64,000 bases of DNA from a virus. Below are positions 8,709 to 60,280 of the stretch, piece by piece. The stretch lies in the IMG/VR virus record IMGVR_UViG_3300028610_002211, positions 1 through 64,000 of that record. One strand, written 5' to 3'. The first letter of the stretch is position 1. Each line of letters opens with the position of its first letter. The notes beneath the pieces are model-generated. The model did no database searches, was not told where the DNA came from, and was given only the letters and a program-made list of their open reading frames with translations. The position numbers and the translations under genes were made by a program.

Positions 8709-8791
8709 CCGGCTTTTACACCTTTTGGTGTGGTTTGGTATACATCGAGCACAACGGCTGTCAGAACGGCGCACAAGGACTCTGAGAAGAT

Positions 8792-34561: not shown

Positions 34562-34631
34562 TTGACAACTGAATTAGAATGATTAAGCTTATAGTATGAG
34601 CAGCGCAACACACAAAGGAGAAAACAAAATG
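34562..34631 (+). promoter_or_regulatory. Promoter-leader cassette, copy 1
   Basis: TTGACAACTGAATTA..TAAGCT TATAGT ATG..AGCGCAACACACAAAGGAG..ATG. Confidence 0.85.
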
Positions 34632-35450
34632 AACGCCAAAGACAGAAATTTCGCAGAAATCACGGACAAAATCATTGCCAAACTCGAAGAAGGTACGGTG
34701 CCTTGGCATTGCCCTTGGGGAATGGCCGTTAACTTGAAATCGGGTAAGTCATATACAGGGATCAATAGCTTGGTGCTCGGTATGGCCGGTCATGAGTCCA
34801 AATTCTGGGGGACTTACAACCAAATCAAAGCGTTAGGCGGATACGTCAAAAAGGGCTCGAAGGCCCAAACAATCATTTATTGGGGTTGGGTCGAAAAAGA
34901 AGAAATTGACGAAGAGACCGGCGAAAAAGAAGTGGTTCGCCGCTTCCCAATTCTCAAAACGTTCAAGGTTTTCAACTTCGAGCAAACCGCTAATTTGACT
35001 GAGCCCAAAGTTGACACTGAAATAGTTAATGTTGATTCGATTGTAGACGGTTATGAACACTGCCCGGTCATCAATTACGGTGGTGAAAAAGCTTATTACA
35101 GACCGTCTACCGATTCGATCGGCATGCCACCGCGCGGCAATTTCGATAGTGACGCGGAACACGCTTCGACGTTGTTTCACGAGATGGTACACAGCACCGG
35201 TCACGAAAGCCGCTTGAATCGTGACGGGCTCAAAAACATCAACTTTGGCTCACAGAATTACAGCCAAGAAGAATTGGTAGCCGAACTGGGCGCAGCGTTT
35301 CTTTGTAACCAGGTTGGGATCGTTGAGCGTACGATCGACAATAGCGCAAACTACATTGCCGGTTGGCTGAGAACCCTGAAAAATGACAAAAAGATGATTG
35401 TTTTCGCCGCTGCACAAGCCCAAAAAGCCGCCGATCAGATTCTTGGTTAA
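34629..35450 (+). CDS. ardC: ArdC-like antirestriction / ssDNA-binding protein (in-frame upstream ATG at 34596)
   Basis: ITDKII..LEEG.VPW..PW, Y.GIN, VFN.EQ, AYYRPS.D.I.MP, FHEMVH.TGH, YS.EELVAELGA. Confidence 0.9.
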   Translation: MNAKDRNFAEITDKIIAKLEEGTVPWHCPWGMAVNLKSGKSYTGINSLVLGMAGHESKFWGTYNQIKALGGYVKKGSKAQTIIYWGWVEKEEIDEETGEKEVVRRFPILKTFKVFNFEQTANLTEPKVDTEIVNVDSIVDGYEHCPVINYGGEKAYYRPSTDSIGMPPRGNFDSDAEHASTLFHEMVHSTGHESRLNRDGLKNINFGSQNYSQEELVAELGAAFLCNQVGIVERTIDNSANYIAGWLRTLKNDKKMIVFAAAQAQKAADQILG

Positions 35451-44103: not shown

Positions 44104-45014
44104 CACGCGGTCGGTTATTCGAACACACACGAACACGCAGCAAAACACCCCCAGAACACCAACACATCCCCTAAAACGCTCGATTACACGCTAAGGTATA
44201 CCCTAGCCTACCTAACGCTCCAACACGCTTACAGACACTTACAGACATGTTTAACGATATAACGACTTGTCTTTAATTTATGAGGGTGATTATTCTAGTC
44301 TTTTGAGTACAGGCATGTTGAAATTCCCCCTATATAGACAGCGCCTTAAAGGAATACTTTAACACGCTAATTCATATATCAGAAAATCTTTAAAACACTC
44401 AAAAAACCCAAAAACCTCCAAATAGACTGAAAAAAAGGATCTGTTTCTCGTTCGAGTACTTAATTCAGATGTCGCCACAATCCCCCAAAAATCCCCCAAA
44501 CAAAAAACCACACCAAGAGCACCATAGGGGTCACAAGAGCCATAACGATAACAACAGAGATAGTAACAGCCACATATACCTCTAATCGTCCCCAGAACAC
44601 CCCTAGAATTCGGTATATGCCGATATACACGCATACACGTAGGCACGTGTAGAAGCGTAACAGAAAGCAGATGAGAGGACATACACGTGATATAGCGTTT
44701 AACGTAATTTAGATGTTTAAGAGGGAATGAGTTAGAGCGTGTTAGAGGGGATTAGTTAAACGGATTAAGGGAGTTAGAGTTGAAGAATAGATATAGCGAC
44801 CGATATAACGACCGATATAACGACCCGTGATAGTTTCGAAAGGCGGCGCGCTCCCGACCTGGGAAAACTCAAAATCAGCAGCACACCTAAACAAGAAACG
44901 TACCAATCCGAGGGGAGTTAAAGCCACGACCCCAGAAACCTTTAAACGGTTTAAACGCGTTTGTCCTCATACGCACATACACACATATAATACAAATCAT
45001 TTGTCGCTTTTATC

Positions 45015-55736: not shown

Positions 55737-57015
55737 AATGAAAAACGTAACACAAGAAAGAAAAATTTTTTGGTACAATCGTTTCGATTTTTTGGCGGTA
55801 GCAATTCTTTTTTGGGCCACTATCAAAAAGAGCGCTTTCAACAATGCGCGCTTGGTTTTCAACGGCGAAACCCGCGTTGTTAGGGGTCGGACCGAATATT
55901 CACCCAACATCACAGAATACGGTTTTGAAGTTGTTTGCGACATCAACGATCATATCGAAATCCCTGGACACCGCTTTGTTGGAATCGCCGTAAACAAAGG
56001 ACCGGGTTGGATCGTTACCAACTTCACTGACGATTTCAAATTCACCAAAGAGGTTGTTGACTCTTTGGATCCACAACGTTGTGATATGTGCGGACACAAA
56101 AGAGACCGGGTTCGTTTGATGATTCTCGAAAACACCGATACCAAAGAGCTTGTGATCGTGGGTGGCAGCTGCGCAAAGAATTTTCGCAACGTCAATCTTG
56201 AAGACTTGGTCCGCAAAATGACAATTTTCTCAAGCAACTTTGGCTGTATGGACCCTGATGAATTGGGCGGTTTTGGCGGCGGCGGTCGTAGAATTTTGGA
56301 TTTGGTTGAGTCGATCGCGGTTGGCGAATTGTTGATCTCTCGACTCGGGTACACCTCAAGAAAAAAAGCAGATATAGGAATGACTTATGCTACTTCAGAT
56401 TTGATCGCCGATTATTTCGCGAGCAAGGGTAAGTCTTACAAATCCATCAAAGCCGTTATGGACCGCTCAAGGTTAGACCTTGCTCAGCGCATTAAAGAGC
56501 TTACAAACGGCGGTCTGAAGGCGCTTAGGGCTCATTTCGAGCGCGCTAACGAGCGCCGTTGGTCTGAATTCAACAGCAACATGGTTGTTTGGTTGTCTTG
56601 TAAAGAAGACGTTCCGCTTGGTGTCGCTGCTTACCTCGCTTTTGTCAACCTCGAAGGCGCCAAAGAATCGGACCGGACCGATCAGAAAGTTGCCGGCTTC
56701 GACGGTGCACCGATCAAAAAAATGTCAGATTTCGGTTGGTTCAAAGTGGTAAACGTTAGAGCAAAGGAGAATGATTACACTGGTAACACTGATTTTTGTT
56801 TCACTTGTTTGAACGCCGATTCACAAAAACTTTGGTTCAAGGTTGGCGAGAATAGCGTTGCAAATAAAGCTTATGATCAAGTTGTCTCGGGTGATGGGGT
56901 TAACCAAGATCAAGAGATCTGGATCGATGTTCGTGGCAAATTGACCCGAAGCAAAAGTGAAATTGCTTTTGCTTCGCACATCAAATTCAAAAAAGTTGAA
57001 ATCCGCACAATCTAA
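55729..57015 (+). CDS. Hypothetical protein with zinc ribbon and possible C-terminal OB-like domain
   Basis: CDMCGHKR.R...VGGSC; 428 aa. Confidence 0.75.
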   Translation: MNKMKNVTQERKIFWYNRFDFLAVAILFWATIKKSAFNNARLVFNGETRVVRGRTEYSPNITEYGFEVVCDINDHIEIPGHRFVGIAVNKGPGWIVTNFTDDFKFTKEVVDSLDPQRCDMCGHKRDRVRLMILENTDTKELVIVGGSCAKNFRNVNLEDLVRKMTIFSSNFGCMDPDELGGFGGGGRRILDLVESIAVGELLISRLGYTSRKKADIGMTYATSDLIADYFASKGKSYKSIKAVMDRSRLDLAQRIKELTNGGLKALRAHFERANERRWSEFNSNMVVWLSCKEDVPLGVAAYLAFVNLEGAKESDRTDQKVAGFDGAPIKKMSDFGWFKVVNVRAKENDYTGNTDFCFTCLNADSQKLWFKVGENSVANKAYDQVVSGDGVNQDQEIWIDVRGKLTRSKSEIAFASHIKFKKVEIRTI

Positions 57016-57211
57016 ACAATTTCGAAAAGCAAACAAAGGGTGCGGGAAACCGCGCTCTTTGTCTTTGCAGAATGTCCAGGGCGCCCTTGTGCGCGCGCCC
57101 GCGCGCGGGCGCATACTCGGGCAAGGGTTAAACACAACGGCCGTTAGAACGGCGCACAAAGGTTCTGAGAAGGAAGTGAGATAAACAGATCCTAAAGGAT
57201 AATATCTAAAT

Positions 57212-57227
57212 TGCAATCTGCGTGCCA
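57212..57227 (-). promoter_or_regulatory. sigma54 -24/-12 site
   Basis: TGGCACG-CAGA-TTGCA. Confidence 0.7.
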
Positions 57228-57268
57228 AAGGAAAAATAATTTTTTTTAAAATAAAAGTGAGAATTTTC

Positions 57269-57332
57269 TTGACATCTGAATTAGCTGTGTTAAGTTTATA
57301 ATATGAGCGCAACAATAAGGAGCAAGACAATG
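57269..57332 (+). promoter_or_regulatory. Promoter-leader cassette, copy 6
   Basis: TTGACA-16-TAAGTT TATAAT ATG..AAGGAG..ATG. Confidence 0.85.
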
Positions 57333-57476
57333 AACGTTAAAATGAAAAAAGGAGAAACAGGTTATTTCAAGGGTGACAAAATACAATTCACCGGAAAAGA
57401 AGAAGTTCTTTACGGTGGGCTTTTCGATGAGTTTGTTTATCTCGAAGGTTATAAAAAAGCAGCTAAAAAAGCATAA
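57303..57476 (+). CDS. Small early protein (57 aa, second start 57330; not in the ORF track)
   Basis: MSATIRSKTMNVKMKKGETGYFKGDKIQFTGKEEVLYGGLFDEFVYLEGYKKAAKKA. Confidence 0.65.
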   Translation: MSATIRSKTMNVKMKKGETGYFKGDKIQFTGKEEVLYGGLFDEFVYLEGYKKAAKKA

Positions 57477-57817
57477 TGCACAAAGGAGCAAGTAAAATGA
57501 ACACCACTAACAATAATAAAAATACTGTCGAAGAAAAAAGAACAACAATCGAGGTTTTCGACCCTAAAAAATTCGATCACAACCAAAGGTGGTTTCAACC
57601 GATCAACAATTTTGCTTTTCTTGGACAAGCTTCCGGTATGGCGCTCGCTCACGATCCGATTTATAGGGATAGTCTATGGGCCGAAACAGTACCGCACCCT
57701 AATTTTTTGCGCGATGTCGAGAGAAAATTTCCCGGTCATGTGTTGGTTTATGATGATATGGGTCATGGACGCGATTGGATTCTCTCGATCAAAGGTTCTA
57801 TTCCTTCGAACGAATAG
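57476..57817 (+). CDS. Hypothetical protein
   Basis: TAATG-coupled; carries the partial leader CACAAAGGAGCAAGTAAAATG. Confidence 0.7.
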   Translation: MHKGASKMNTTNNNKNTVEEKRTTIEVFDPKKFDHNQRWFQPINNFAFLGQASGMALAHDPIYRDSLWAETVPHPNFLRDVERKFPGHVLVYDDMGHGRDWILSIKGSIPSNE

Positions 57818-57818
57818 C

Positions 57819-57924
57819 GTTCAACGCCCTTGTGCGCGCCCCTGTGGTAACTTTTGTTTGTCTCCTGTGTTGCGCTAACCATGGGGATTTGAGTCGAACA
57901 GGAGCGCGCACAAGGGTGTTGAAC
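57819..57924. ncRNA. Candidate structured RNA: 27-bp stem enclosing an inverted copy of the cassette leader/SD
   Basis: Inverted repeat 57819-57845 / 57898-57924 (25/27); the loop at 57851-57882 is the reverse complement of ATGGTTAGCGCAACACAGGAGACAAACAAAAG. Confidence 0.5.
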
Positions 57925-57985
57925 CCGTTCAACAGCTTCAATGAACCTGCCAAAATAAACAGATCCTAAAGGATAATATCTAAAT

Positions 57986-58001
57986 TGCAATTCACGTGCC
58001 A
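57986..58001 (-). promoter_or_regulatory. sigma54 -24/-12 site
   Basis: TGGCACG-TGAA-TTGCA. Confidence 0.7.
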
Positions 58002-58043
58002 AGAAAAAAACCACTTCTGTTTAATTTAAATGTCGTTTTTCGG

Positions 58044-58114
58044 TTGACATCTAAATTAGAATGATTAAGCTTTATAGTATGAGCGCAACACAAAACACGG
58101 GAGAAAACAAAATG
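58044..58114 (+). promoter_or_regulatory. Promoter-leader cassette, copy 7
   Basis: TTGACA-16-TAAGCT TTATAGT ATG..GGGAG..ATG. Confidence 0.85.
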
Positions 58115-58698
58115 ACAAAAATCGAAATGGCTCAGTATATTGTTGAGGTCTTGTATCAGTTGGACCACGTACCTGCCCGAGATCACATCCATGTCCAGCG
58201 AATAGCTCGCAGGCCGAAGGTTGCCTTGGAGAATTTGTACGAAAGAGCTTTCGTGGTCGAAGAAGAGCTGAAGGCGAAAAAAACCATAGCTAGCCTGTAA
58301 ACCAAAACTGCAAACGGGGGGGGTAACACTCCCCGAAAGGGTGTCCGATGAACGACAAAATAAAAAAAATACTGTTCGAATTGTCGGCCGATTTCACTTT
58401 GGCTGGTATCCAACAAGGGCGCAAATCGTTACACGAGGATAAAGCGCTTTGCCTCAAGGTTTCGAAATTACGAAACGCGATCGATCTTTTGTCACTCCAA
58501 AGAGCGCAACTTGCGCGTTGTTGGGAAGGTGTTTCGATTACTTCTATCGTTGAAACGGTCAAAGAATGTTTGGGCGCAGCGCTTGAATTGGGATCTTTTT
58601 TGGGTAATAACTACCCCGCCGAGTATATCGAAATCGAGTTGCATGGTACAAAATACGTCGAAAAATGTTGGGCCTTGATTGGCGTTTTGTCCGTTTAA
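58079..58698 (+). CDS. Two hypothetical early genes (58079/58112-58300; 58348-58698)
   Basis: Cassette-led; followed by a terminator. Confidence 0.65.
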
Positions 58699-58720
58699 AA
58701 TCGTATTTCATCCCGGTTTA

Positions 58721-58750
58721 AAGGTGTTTCGAAAGGGGCGCCTTTTTTTA
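58721..58750 (+). terminator. Intrinsic terminator
   Basis: AAGGTGTTTC-GAAA-GGGGCGCCTT followed by a T-tract. Confidence 0.8.
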
Positions 58751-58782
58751 TTTCTGTGTAATTCACAAGTCAGGATAATCTT

Positions 58783-58798
58783 TGGCACGTAAATTGCT
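58783..58798 (+). promoter_or_regulatory. sigma54 -24/-12 site
   Basis: TGGCACG-TAAA-TTGCT. Confidence 0.7.
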
Positions 58799-58923
58799 AC
58801 GCGTGTTGTAAATATTATCCTTTAGAATCTGTCCATCCGTTTCGGCGTCCGAATTAACCGCTTATTTTTGTTGGCGTTAGGCTTTGTGTTTGAAAACGAG
58901 TTCAAGGGCCTTGTGCGCCTTCT

Positions 58924-58990
58924 CAAGGCGTTTTAACGGGTCAACCTATACCAGGGGTTGAGTTAAAAAAACGGTCGTTAAAACGCCTTG
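58924..58990. repeat. Perfect 15-bp inverted repeat within a phased element
   Basis: CAAGGCGTTTTAACG ... CGTTAAAACGCCTTG with an inner TCAACC/GGTTGA stem. Confidence 0.85.
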
Positions 58991-59029
58991 TGGATATCTT
59001 GTGTTTAATTCACATGTTGATAAATAGTT

Positions 59030-59045
59030 TGGAATGAATATTGCA
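59030..59045 (+). promoter_or_regulatory. sigma54-like -24/-12 site
   Basis: TGGAATG-AATA-TTGCA (GG-N10-GC). Confidence 0.55.
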
Positions 59046-59142
59046 ACGCGCGCTTGTTTACATTTAGAATCTGTACATCCGCTTCAACCTTCGATATAAA
59101 TTGCGTTTTGACTTTTTAGTTAAAGAGTGTTAAAACCTGTTC

Positions 59143-59643
59143 ATGAAAATTCTAAGACGAAAAAACATAAAAAGCTTTCCGGGTTATCAAATTTCAAACT
59201 TTGGAACAGTTAGGAGAGAAGTTTATAAATTGTACGGGATTAAGGAAACGAGGATATTTCCTCATATCAATAATGGTTATCAAATTGCCAATTTAAAAAG
59301 CGAATCTGGGGAGCAAAAGAAAGTGCCTATTCACAAACTTGTTGCAAAAGCTTTCGTTTCCGGCTGGTTTGAGGGCGCAATTGTTGATCATATCGACGAG
59401 AATAAGCAGAATAATTTTTTCAAAAATCTTCGCTGGGTAACTCATCGCTTTAATTCCTCTCGACGTAAGCGCGATCTGCCTTTGAATGTTTCAAAATTTC
59501 GAAATCGAAATAGTTATATTGTTCGAGTTTATTTCGGTGGTGAAATCGTTTATTTGGGCTCATATAAGACGGTTGAAGAAGCTTCGAGGGTTGCTGAAAG
59601 GGCGCGCAAGCAAGCGGAAAAAGGGGAAAAACCAACTCGTTAA
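59143..59643 (+). CDS. NUMOD4-HNH homing endonuclease with AP2-like C-terminal domain
   Basis: IKSFPGYQISNFG.V, IHKLVAKAF, VDHIDENKQNN...NLRWV, YLGSYKTVEEA. Confidence 0.9.
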   Translation: MKILRRKNIKSFPGYQISNFGTVRREVYKLYGIKETRIFPHINNGYQIANLKSESGEQKKVPIHKLVAKAFVSGWFEGAIVDHIDENKQNNFFKNLRWVTHRFNSSRRKRDLPLNVSKFRNRNSYIVRVYFGGEIVYLGSYKTVEEASRVAERARKQAEKGEKPTR

Positions 59644-60168: not shown

Positions 60169-60206
60169 CAGTTTTTATTTTCATATATCTGTATTTTCTT
60201 AACATA

Positions 60207-60229
60207 TGTTTCACATTTCACGTGAAACA
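60207..60229. other. parS-like ParB binding site
   Basis: CATTTCACGTGAAACA (14/16 to TGTTTCACGTGAAACA) with an overlapping extra half-site TGTTTCAC; intergenic. Confidence 0.55.
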
Positions 60230-60280
60230 TTTCTTGATTTATAAATTGGATTGTGTAAAGCTCACAAAATGGAGGTATCA

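What the first reader, a model, noticed from the sequence alone, without database searches (positions are those of the whole stretch)
57819..57924. Hairpin-displayed anti-leader: a 27-bp stem whose loop is the reverse complement of the 5' leader/SD shared by seven early cassettes
Seen: right after the stop of 57476..57817, a 25/27 inverted repeat encloses CTTTTGTTTGTCTCCTGTGTTGCGCT. Its reverse complement, (ATGGTT)AGCGCAACACAGGAGACAAACAAAAG, is a copy of the leader AGCGCAACA(CA)...GGAG.A..CAAAATG found at 34596, 51048, 51705, 52137, 55284, 57303 and 58079, but with the downstream ATG lost (AAAAGT). Inference: on the + strand (3' UTR, stem suitable for RNase III release) it would be a trans-acting antisense RNA able to block the SD of every cassette gene, including ardC. 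This is analogous to, but not homologous with, the P1 C4 and P4 CI RNAs. On the - strand, driven by the sigma54 site at 57986-58001, it would be a sense decoy of the leader (an ACA-GGA motif like CsrA/RsmA sites) or an anti-antisense RNA. Either way it suggests a one-RNA, many-targets switch for a dispersed early regulon.
Basis: partly seen in the sequence, partly recalled or inferred. Interest (0 to 1): 0.85.

Follow-up and report, generated by a model that had tools for sequence, protein, structure and literature searches.

The report
Phage hairpin holding inverted early-leader copy
The longest hairpin in this 104-kb uncultured phage really does carry, in its loop, a backwards copy of the shared start of the early messages. 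No expression data or close relative was available, so it may be an RNA switch or a leftover of cassette shuffling, and I lean towards leftover.

Summary
OBSERVATION: confirmed. Arms 57819-57845 and 57898-57924 pair 25/27 around a 52-nt loop. This is the longest inverted repeat in the 104,305-bp genome. On the minus strand the loop (57882-57850) is a promoter-less, start-less copy of the early leader. No other minus-strand window and none of 5000 shuffles scores as high.

NEW CONTEXT: the hairpin is one of three paralogous hairpins (A 57084-57162, B = this one, C 58920-58994). Each lies about 40-110 nt downstream of a sigma54-type -24/-12 site and points the same way as that site. These units sit back to back with early sigma70 promoters, and inverted, decayed copies lie nearby. 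The loops of A and C are unrelated to the leader. Early promoters without a sigma54 site have no such hairpin.

INTERPRETATION: partly supported.
- For: the plus-strand loop can pair with all seven leaders (-27 to -34 kcal/mol, about 10 kcal/mol to open), and cassette starts rank top among 180 gene starts.
- Against: the module layout favours minus-strand transcription, where the loop is a sense mimic. Distant relatives with their own cassettes lack anything similar.
- Untested: near relatives exist, but their DNA could not be fetched.

VERDICT AND ODDS:
- Shuffling by-product in a structural hairpin: about 0.4.
- Plus-strand antisense RNA: 0.2.
- Minus-strand mimic: 0.17.

Other first readers in this scan noted the same stretch on this same genome; no look-alike stretch was found on other DNA.

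The parts
57819..57845 (.). Left arm of the hairpin (27 nt). It contains the motif CCCTTGTGCGCGC, which is shared with paralog A.
57846..57897 (.). The 52-nt loop. As plus-strand RNA it folds into an inner helix; as minus-strand RNA it is more open.
57898..57924 (.). Right arm of the hairpin (27 nt, 25/27 paired). It is followed by a second palindrome, GTTGAAC-CC-GTTCAAC, at 57918-57933.
57850..57882 (-). Promoter-less copy of the early leader. It runs ATG (57882-57880), AGCGCAACAC, AGGAG (57866-57862), A-rich tract, then AGT (57852-57850) in the in-frame slot of the second ATG.
57986..58001 (-). Sigma54-type -24/-12 site TGGCACGTGAATTGCA (12/12). It can also be read as a sigma70-like TTGGCA-18-TATTAT. 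It points into the hairpin, with the predicted start about 50 nt upstream of it.
57955..57991 (-). Conserved box around the predicted start site, identical to 57181-57217. The core TATTATCCTTTAGRATCTGT is also present at units A, B and C; unit D keeps only TTTAGAATCTGT.
57084..57162 (-). Paralog A hairpin. Its stem core is CCYTTGTGCGC/GCGCACAAGGG. It lies downstream of the sigma54-type site at 57227-57212. Its loop is unrelated to the leader, and its right half is homologous to the dnaB 5' UTR.
58920..58994 (+). Paralog C hairpin (19-bp stem, 37-nt loop). It lies downstream of the sigma54-type site at 58783-58798 on the plus strand.
59030..59045 (+). Fourth, weaker -24/-12-like site (TGGAATGAATATTGCA). 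It has no hairpin and lies 98 nt upstream of an HNH endonuclease gene (59143-59643).
57269..57332 (+). Early sigma70-type promoter plus leader c57. Its transcript reads through genes 57330-57476 and 57497-57817 into the hairpin.
58044..58114 (+). The next early promoter plus leader c58, back to back with the minus-strand site. An operator-like inverted repeat lies at 58022-58058.

Best explanation
The palindrome is the structured core of one of three paralogous small units (A, B, C).

SHOWN
- Each unit consists of a sigma54-type -24/-12 site, a conserved 20-37-nt box over the predicted start, and a long hairpin about 40-110 nt further on.
- Units A and B sit back to back with an early sigma70 promoter. 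C and D carry only a decayed, inverted copy of its -35 box.
- The units have been duplicated (A and B, 774 bp apart) and inverted (C and D) within 2 kb.

INFERRED
- The strand for which this hairpin was built is therefore the minus strand. On that strand the loop carries a sense copy of the first 33 nt of the early messages, without a promoter and without the second start codon.
- This copy is most likely a by-product of the recombination that shuffles these repeated regulatory cassettes, as shown for the promoter/stem-loop cassettes (PeSLs) of T4-type phages.
- It became trapped in a hairpin whose own job is structural. The hairpin is a stable double-stranded RNA at the point where the plus-strand early operon from 57269 meets the minus-strand transcript from 58002.
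- There it would protect RNA ends, offer an RNase III site, or both.
- On this reading the leader copy does not itself regulate the early genes.
For: - All three perfect -24/-12 sites are followed by a long hairpin in the same orientation, whichever strand they lie on.
- The five other early promoters of the same class have no such hairpin upstream.
- A and B share stem sequence (17/18 and 14/17 identical) but have wholly different loops. C's loop is also unrelated.
- Stem-only energies favour the sigma54-sense strand in A (-18.2 against -15.6) and in C (-25.2 against -23.9). B is neutral.
- Dead copies of translation start regions occur elsewhere in these units. The right half of A is a 35/40 copy of the dnaB 5' UTR, on the plus strand, followed by a 2-codon ORF.
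- Decayed, inverted -35 boxes of the early promoter lie at 58773(-) and 59020(-), 0.9-1.2 kb away.
- Relatives G005 and G008 have their own repeated cassettes but no inverted leader and no comparable hairpin.
- The hairpin is not an intrinsic terminator, because no T run follows it on either strand.
- PeSL cassettes recombine and shuffle early genes (PMC2839356).
Against: - Two rare features coincide: the only minus-strand leader copy in 104 kb sits in the 52-nt loop of the genome's longest hairpin.
- The copy starts at the ATG that marks the predicted +1 of the cassettes, shows no promoter homology, and keeps the cassette reading frame. This fits a constraint at the RNA level.
- Pairing of the plus-strand loop with the leaders is energetically favourable, and the leaders themselves are unstructured.
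- The hairpin has no demonstrated structural role. No transcript ends are known, and sigma54 use by this phage's unknown host is unproven. The phage encodes no activator, sigma factor or RNA polymerase.
Confidence: 0.4

Rival explanations
1. Plus-strand antisense regulator. The hairpin is transcribed as the 3' part of the early operon from 57269. It may be trimmed by RNase III. Its loop pairs with the shared 5' end and SD of early messages, its own in cis first, and shuts off their translation.
For: All genes and the early promoters are on the plus strand, and no terminator lies between 57269 and the hairpin. Duplex energies with the seven leaders are -27 to -34 kcal/mol, against +10 to open the loop. 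Cassette starts are the top 4 of 180 predicted targets. The 27-bp stem suits RNase III.
Against: The anti-SD and GUUG stretches are paired in an inner helix, with unpaired probability near 0. Only UUUGUU and a 3-nt apical loop are free to nucleate pairing. One antisense per transcript faces seven leader-bearing promoters. The paralog hairpins carry no antisense to the leaders. Distant relatives have no equivalent. There is no Rfam match.
Confidence: 0.2
2. Minus-strand mimic. The promoter at 58002 (sigma54-type, or its sigma70-like reading) makes a small RNA whose hairpin loop displays a sense copy of the early 5' end. This titrates whatever binds that sequence: a translational repressor, a CsrA-like protein, or an anti-leader RNA.
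For: A perfect -24/-12 site lies about 50 nt upstream, and the module family implies that this strand is used. The spacer N4 differs between A and B while the flanks are identical, which indicates constraint on the promoter elements. On the minus strand the A/C-rich part of the loop is mostly unpaired, and opening costs only +5.5 kcal/mol.
Against: There is only one decoy site, whereas CsrB-type sponges carry many. No leader-binding factor is known. The AUG is internal, so the loop cannot mimic a leaderless 5' end. No bEBP is encoded by the phage and the host is unknown. No terminator follows on the minus strand.
Confidence: 0.17
3. DNA-level element. The palindrome, its GTTCAAC/GTTGAAC half-sites and the four repeated boxes form a protein-binding or cruciform site, for example part of a replication origin or a recombination site. 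The leader similarity is incidental.
For: It is the longest palindrome in the genome. Repeated boxes in both orientations, A-tracts and a parS-like palindrome at 60199-60237 lie within 3 kb. The phage carries its own replisome genes.
Against: The boxes are 250-780 bp apart, unlike iterons. The bases conserved within them are exactly the -24/-12 positions. No initiator gene was identified next to the region.
Confidence: 0.1
4. A real small minus-strand gene. A 39-codon ORF runs from ATG 57882 to 57763 and begins MVSATQ, like the cassette N-termini.
For: The ORF is open and in the cassette frame. N-terminal MSATQ extensions appear to be translated in the cassettes.
Against: No SD or promoter precedes this ATG, which lies inside a 27-bp stem. 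The conserved arm motif is read in different frames in the A and B ORFs (derived by hand from the sequences). No such protein occurs in 5.8 billion (83-aa frame) or 1.8 billion (51-aa frame) predicted proteins.
Confidence: 0.03

Closest known systems
PeSL cassettes of T4-type phages (promoter-early stem-loops; PMC2839356, PMC4122927)
   Same: They are repeated modules of about 100 bp, each with a strong sigma70-type early promoter and a stem-loop, bounding small genes of unknown function. Recombination between copies shuffles, deletes and duplicates segments. Relative G005 has a terminator hairpin directly before each promoter copy.
   Different: Here the long hairpins occur at only three junctions and are not followed by a T run. 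They go with a divergent -24/-12 site, and one of them carries an inverted leader copy. None of this is described for PeSLs.
P1/P7 C4 antisense RNA and P4 CI RNA
   Same: The P1 c4 RNA is a trans-acting, processed 77-base antisense RNA that represses synthesis of the Ant proteins (PMC8546580, which cites Citron and Schuster 1992). From my own knowledge, not checked here: it is cut from the transcript that also carries its targets and pairs through exposed loops.
   Different: There is no sequence or structure match to the Rfam models. C4 and CI act in the immunity of temperate elements and on one or two sites, not on a dispersed set of seven lytic early cassettes. Here the complementary stretch is largely buried.
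RNase III sites between T7 early genes and the lambda sib retroregulator (from my own knowledge)
   Same: They are long imperfect hairpins in intercistronic or 3' regions of early phage transcripts, and cleavage there sets mRNA stability.
   Different: Those hairpins carry no copy of other genes' leaders. Cleavage here is untested.
Sigma54-dependent small RNAs (Qrr, GlmY) and CsrB/RsmZ-type sponges (from my own knowledge)
   Same: A -24/-12 promoter drives a short structured RNA, and sponges display protein-binding motifs (A-GGA) in hairpin loops.
   Different: There is no Rfam match. Only a single motif is present. The setting is a phage, with an unknown host and unknown activator.

Membership tests
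Rfam C4 antisense RNA family (P1/P7 C4, P4-like CI) | Match to the family covariance model | tested here: not met
   No Rfam family matches at gathering score over the whole window. None matches at E up to 10 over 56900-59200 apart from chance hits to unrelated families.
PeSL-type regulatory cassette | Repeated strong sigma70-like early promoter fronting small ORFs | tested here: met
   Seven near-identical promoter-leader modules are present. A relative contig, L213, has four more.
PeSL-type regulatory cassette | The adjacent stem-loop acts as an effective transcription terminator | tested here: not met
   No T run follows the hairpin on either strand, and the terminator scan finds nothing at 57819-57924. 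Terminator activity itself is not testable here.
Sigma54-dependent promoter | -24 GG and -12 GC elements matching TGGCACG-N4-TTGCW | tested here: met
   The sites at 58001(-) and 57227(-) match 12/12, and 58783(+) matches 11/12. The genome has 6 hits of at least 10/12, against 1.0 in shuffles.
Sigma54-dependent promoter | A host sigma54 and an enhancer-binding activator are available | not testable with these tools
   The phage encodes no Sigma54_activat, Sigma54_DBD or Sigma70_r2 domain. The host is unknown.
RNase III processing site | A double-stranded RNA stem of about 20 bp or more | tested here: met
   The stem is 27 bp with one non-pair and one G-U on each strand. Cleavage is not testable.
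Intrinsic terminator | G+C-rich stem, short loop, then a T run | tested here: not met
   The loop is 52 nt, no T run follows, and the terminator scan reports nothing here.
CsrB/RsmZ-type protein sponge | Many GGA motifs displayed in loops | tested here: not met
   The loop holds a single AGGAG.
MITE or REP-like mobile palindrome | Many copies with the same terminal inverted repeats | tested here: not met
   The phage has a single full copy. The arm 18-mer gives 100 scattered single hits in bacterial genomes, and none has the partner arm within 150 nt.

The most novel reading that the evidence does not exclude
The loop is a working RNA regulator of the whole dispersed early regulon. Either it is a plus-strand antisense released from an early transcript, giving RNA-based shut-off of early translation. 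Or it is a sigma54-controlled minus-strand mimic of the shared 5' end of early messages, which would tie early-gene translation to a host sigma54 signal. In both cases one hairpin-displayed 33-nt sequence would address seven or more cassettes, including ardC.
Probability: 0.3. Interest if true: 0.75.

Novelty: new variant of a known kind. Interest (0 to 1): 0.42.

Why it matters
If the loop works as an RNA, this would be a lytic phage that coordinates a scattered set of early and anti-defence genes, ardC among them, through one small RNA aimed at their common 5' end. It might do so under host sigma54 control. That would be a new layout for early-gene shut-off, a job done by a protein such as RegA in T4.

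If it is a leftover, it still documents how repeated promoter-leader cassettes are duplicated, inverted and fragmented in an unstudied group of DnaE-encoding phages of about 100 kb. It would also caution against reading function into the complementarity such shuffling creates.

The phage is known only from metagenomes and has no known host, so direct tests will be hard.

Tried and rejected
SEARCHES FOR RELATIVES
- There is no nucleotide match to cultured phages or plasmids.
- The neighbouring proteins have no relatives in IMG/VR, whether queried singly or as an alignment.
- Promoter, leader and box patterns gave only chance hits or nothing in IMG/VR and in bacterial genomes.
- One metagenome contig, L213 (1955 bp), carries four cassettes but not this region.
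- Relatives of the upstream 106-aa protein exist at 95% and 74% identity.

INDIRECT ROUTE
I looked for predicted proteins from ORFs that overlap the hairpin, hoping to read relatives' hairpin sequence that way. Nothing was found. The single hit to the 51-aa ORF is an unrelated repetitive protein.

READINGS REJECTED
- Intrinsic terminator: no T run.
- MITE/REP element.
- Known RNA family.
- Stop-codon read-through: it would add only 10 codons (my own reading of the sequence).
- Minus-strand sigma70 promoter placed directly before the loop ATG: at best 7/12, and inside the stem.

OTHER
- The background is inflated by self-hits. Only the scores of the hairpin loops themselves are usable.
- The 428-aa upstream protein has no assignable function.

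Full report
WHAT THE WINDOW IS

The window is the first 64 kb of a 104,305-bp IMG/VR virus record, rated complete by CheckV. All long ORFs lie on the plus strand. The phage encodes a DnaE-type polymerase, a DnaB-like helicase, a primase, a UvsX-like recombinase and SbcCD-like nucleases. ArdC is at 34629-35450. There is no nucleotide match to cultured phages or plasmids. The nearest DnaE sequences among cultured phages are below 37% identical. IMG/VR holds relatives at 50-58% DnaE identity.

- The arms 57819-57845 and 57898-57924 are 27 nt long and 93% complementary, and they enclose 52 nt.
- The repeat starts one base after the TAG stop of gene 57497-57817.
- It is the longest inverted repeat in the whole genome.
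- Both RNA strands fold far better than shuffled sequence: -65.9 kcal/mol (z -8.0) on the plus strand and -58.0 (z -6.7) on the minus strand.
- AGCGCAACA occurs eight times in the window against 0.5 expected. Seven copies follow a strongly conserved promoter, TTGAC(A/T)TCTGAATTA, then an extended -10, then ATG. The eighth copy is on the minus strand inside the loop.
- The loop's minus strand aligns to the leaders over AGCGCAACAC, AGGAGA and AAACAAAA with score 32. No other minus-strand window of the genome exceeds 26 (20,804 windows). None of 5000 shuffles of the loop reaches 32.
- On the plus strand, only true gene starts score as high.
- Profile searches alone are weak: E = 0.57 with a leader model and E = 14 with a whole-cassette model. 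The similarity is therefore confined to the leader and excludes the promoter.

WHAT THE 'LEADER' IS

In all seven cassettes an ATG lies 7 nt after the extended -10 element and is in frame with the SD-led ATG. The distances are 27-36 nt. The one related metagenome contig found, L213, has four more cassettes with in-frame distances of 39, 36, 36 and 39 nt.

A relative of the upstream gene at about 75% identity was called with the N-terminus MSATQTNQTGDKKM. Differences in length between copies are always multiples of three. The shared sequence therefore probably serves both as the 5' end of leaderless messages and as a short coding extension with an internal SD.

A promoter-less copy at genome position 74566, beyond the window, sits before an in-frame ATG. 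The leader can therefore be used as a portable translation start module. The hairpin copy keeps the first ATG (57882-57880) and the frame, but reads AGT where the second ATG should be.

THE CONTEXT CHANGES THE PICTURE

A scan for TGGCACG-N4-TTGCW finds six sites of at least 10/12 in the genome, against 1.0 in shuffles. Four of them lie within 1.9 kb around the hairpin: 57227(-), 58001(-), 58783(+) and 59030(+).

- Each site is followed by a conserved box: the core TATTATCCTTTAGRATCTGT at A, B and C, and only TTTAGAATCTGT at D. The stretch 57181-57217 is identical to 57955-57991, while the four spacer bases between the -24 and -12 elements differ.
- In A and B the same bases can also be read as a sigma70-like TTGGCA-18-TATTAT. 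In C that reading fails, while the -24/-12 spacing is kept.
- Each of the three perfect sites is followed, about 40-110 nt after the predicted start and in the same orientation, by a long hairpin. These are A (57084-57162), B (the finding) and C (58920-58994).
- A and B share stem sequence (CGCCCTTGTGCGCGC, 17/18; GCGCACAAGG..TGA, 14/17) but have unrelated loops. B and C share AACGRGTTCAA...CCTTGTGCGC.
- The five other early promoters of the same class have no such hairpin upstream.
- Stem-only energies favour the sigma54-sense strand in A and C, and are equal in B.

The hairpin therefore belongs to the -24/-12 units, not to the early cassettes. For unit B the sense strand is the minus strand.

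The phage encodes no sigma54, no activator, no sigma70-family factor and no T7-type polymerase. Any use of these sites depends on an unknown host.

SIGNS OF SHUFFLING

- Units A and B are a tandem duplication 774 bp apart.
- Units C and D are inverted relative to A and B. On the minus strand they carry decayed copies of the early -35 box, at 58773 and 59020.
- The right half of A is a 35/40 copy of the 5' UTR of dnaB (8750-8789). It lies on the plus strand and ends in a two-codon ORF.
- The arm motif GCGC(G/A)CACAAGG itself resembles the leader core GCGCAACAC..AAGG.

Fragments of translation start regions thus occur in both orientations in these units. Recombination between repeated promoter/stem-loop cassettes is documented in T4-type phages (PMC2839356).

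- The plus-strand loop can pair with every leader. Duplex energies are -27.2 to -33.9 kcal/mol, and the leaders are essentially unstructured.
- Among 180 predicted gene starts, cassette starts take ranks 1-4, and all seven are in the top 14. The z-scores are only about -3, because the U/C-rich loop pairs with purine-rich start regions in general.
- In the plus-strand fold, the anti-SD CUCC and the GUUG stretch are paired in an inner helix with unpaired probability near 0. Opening costs +10 kcal/mol, against +5.5 on the minus strand.
- The antisense idea is therefore feasible in energy terms, but the sequence is not 'displayed'.

COMPARATIVE TESTS

- Relatives at 53-58% DnaE identity (G005, G006, G007, G008) were read in full.
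- G005 has nine copies of a promoter of the same kind, each preceded by a terminator hairpin, and its own conserved leader. G008 has eleven copies of AAGGAGAACCGGCCATG.
- No inverted copy of G005's or G008's own leader was found. None of the four relatives has a hairpin of comparable size, or one whose loop resembles its own gene starts.
- None has the hairpin sequence, leader enrichment or a cluster of perfect -24/-12 sites.
- These relatives are too distant to decide the matter.
- Closer relatives exist. Their DNA could not be reached, and no sequencing runs could be queried.

OTHER READINGS

- No Rfam family matches.
- The hairpin is not an intrinsic terminator.
- It is not a host-derived mobile palindrome.
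- The 39-codon minus-strand ORF starting MVSATQ has no promoter and no SD, and lies inside the stem. No matching predicted protein was found for the hairpin-overlapping frames tested.

VERDICT

The proposed one-RNA, many-targets switch remains possible on either strand, at about 0.3-0.4 in total.

The best-supported reading (about 0.4) has two parts. The hairpin is a structural part of a duplicated and inverted -24/-12 unit. The leader copy in its loop is a by-product of cassette shuffling.

What argues most strongly for function is the coincidence of the only inverted leader copy with the loop of the longest hairpin, together with the fact that the copy starts at the predicted +1. The alignment of near relatives and strand-specific RNA data would settle the question.

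Noticed in passing
window 57212-57227(-), 57986-58001(-), 58783-58798(+), 59030-59045(+): A cluster of four sigma54-type -24/-12 sites lies in a phage that encodes no sigma factor or activator. Each is followed by a conserved box. Three lead into long hairpins and the fourth into an HNH endonuclease gene. The N4 spacers vary while the flanks are identical.
   Followed up: partly
window 34596, 51048, 51705, 52137, 55284, 57303, 58079; L213:1-1955: In all seven cassettes here and all four in relative contig L213, the ATG at the predicted +1 is in frame with the SD-led ATG. Length differences are multiples of three. A relative's protein (P0008) was called from the first ATG (MSATQTNQTGDKKM). This suggests leaderless and SD-led dual starts.
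   Followed up: partly
G000:C1:74566-74597 (beyond the window): A promoter-less sense copy of the leader (AGCGCAACACAAAAAGGAG, then ATG) lies inside a plus-strand coding region and may act as an internal start.
   Followed up: no
window 8750-8789 and 57133-57172: The 5' UTR of the DnaB-like helicase gene is 35/40 identical to the right half of hairpin A. A minus-strand RNA from unit A would therefore be antisense to the dnaB start region.
   Followed up: partly
window 58022-58034 / 58046-58058 and the same layout at other early promoters: An operator-like inverted repeat (AATTTAAATGTC ... GACATCTAAATT) straddles the -35 box. It is also kept in relative contig L213.
   Followed up: no
window 60199-60237: An 18-bp palindrome contains a parS-like TGTTTCAC..GTGAAACA core. 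No parA or parB gene was seen nearby.
   Followed up: no
L342-L347 (G005), L328-L333 (G008): Distant relatives have their own highly repeated regulatory modules. G005 has nine copies of a terminator hairpin followed by TTTTTTCTTGACTTCTGGA..TATAAT and the leader AATAGGGCAAAGGAGAACGGACATG. G008 has eleven copies of AAGGAGAACCGGCCATG.
   Followed up: partly
window 44350-44750: Several decayed minus-strand copies of the early -35/GAATTA box lie in the only stretch of the window with negative GC skew.
   Followed up: no
window 57476-57499: The start region of gene 57497-57817 is a truncated leader (CACAAAGGAGCAAGTAAAATG, 20/21 identical to cassette c52). An alternative upstream ATG at 57476 overlaps the stop of the previous gene.
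   Followed up: partly
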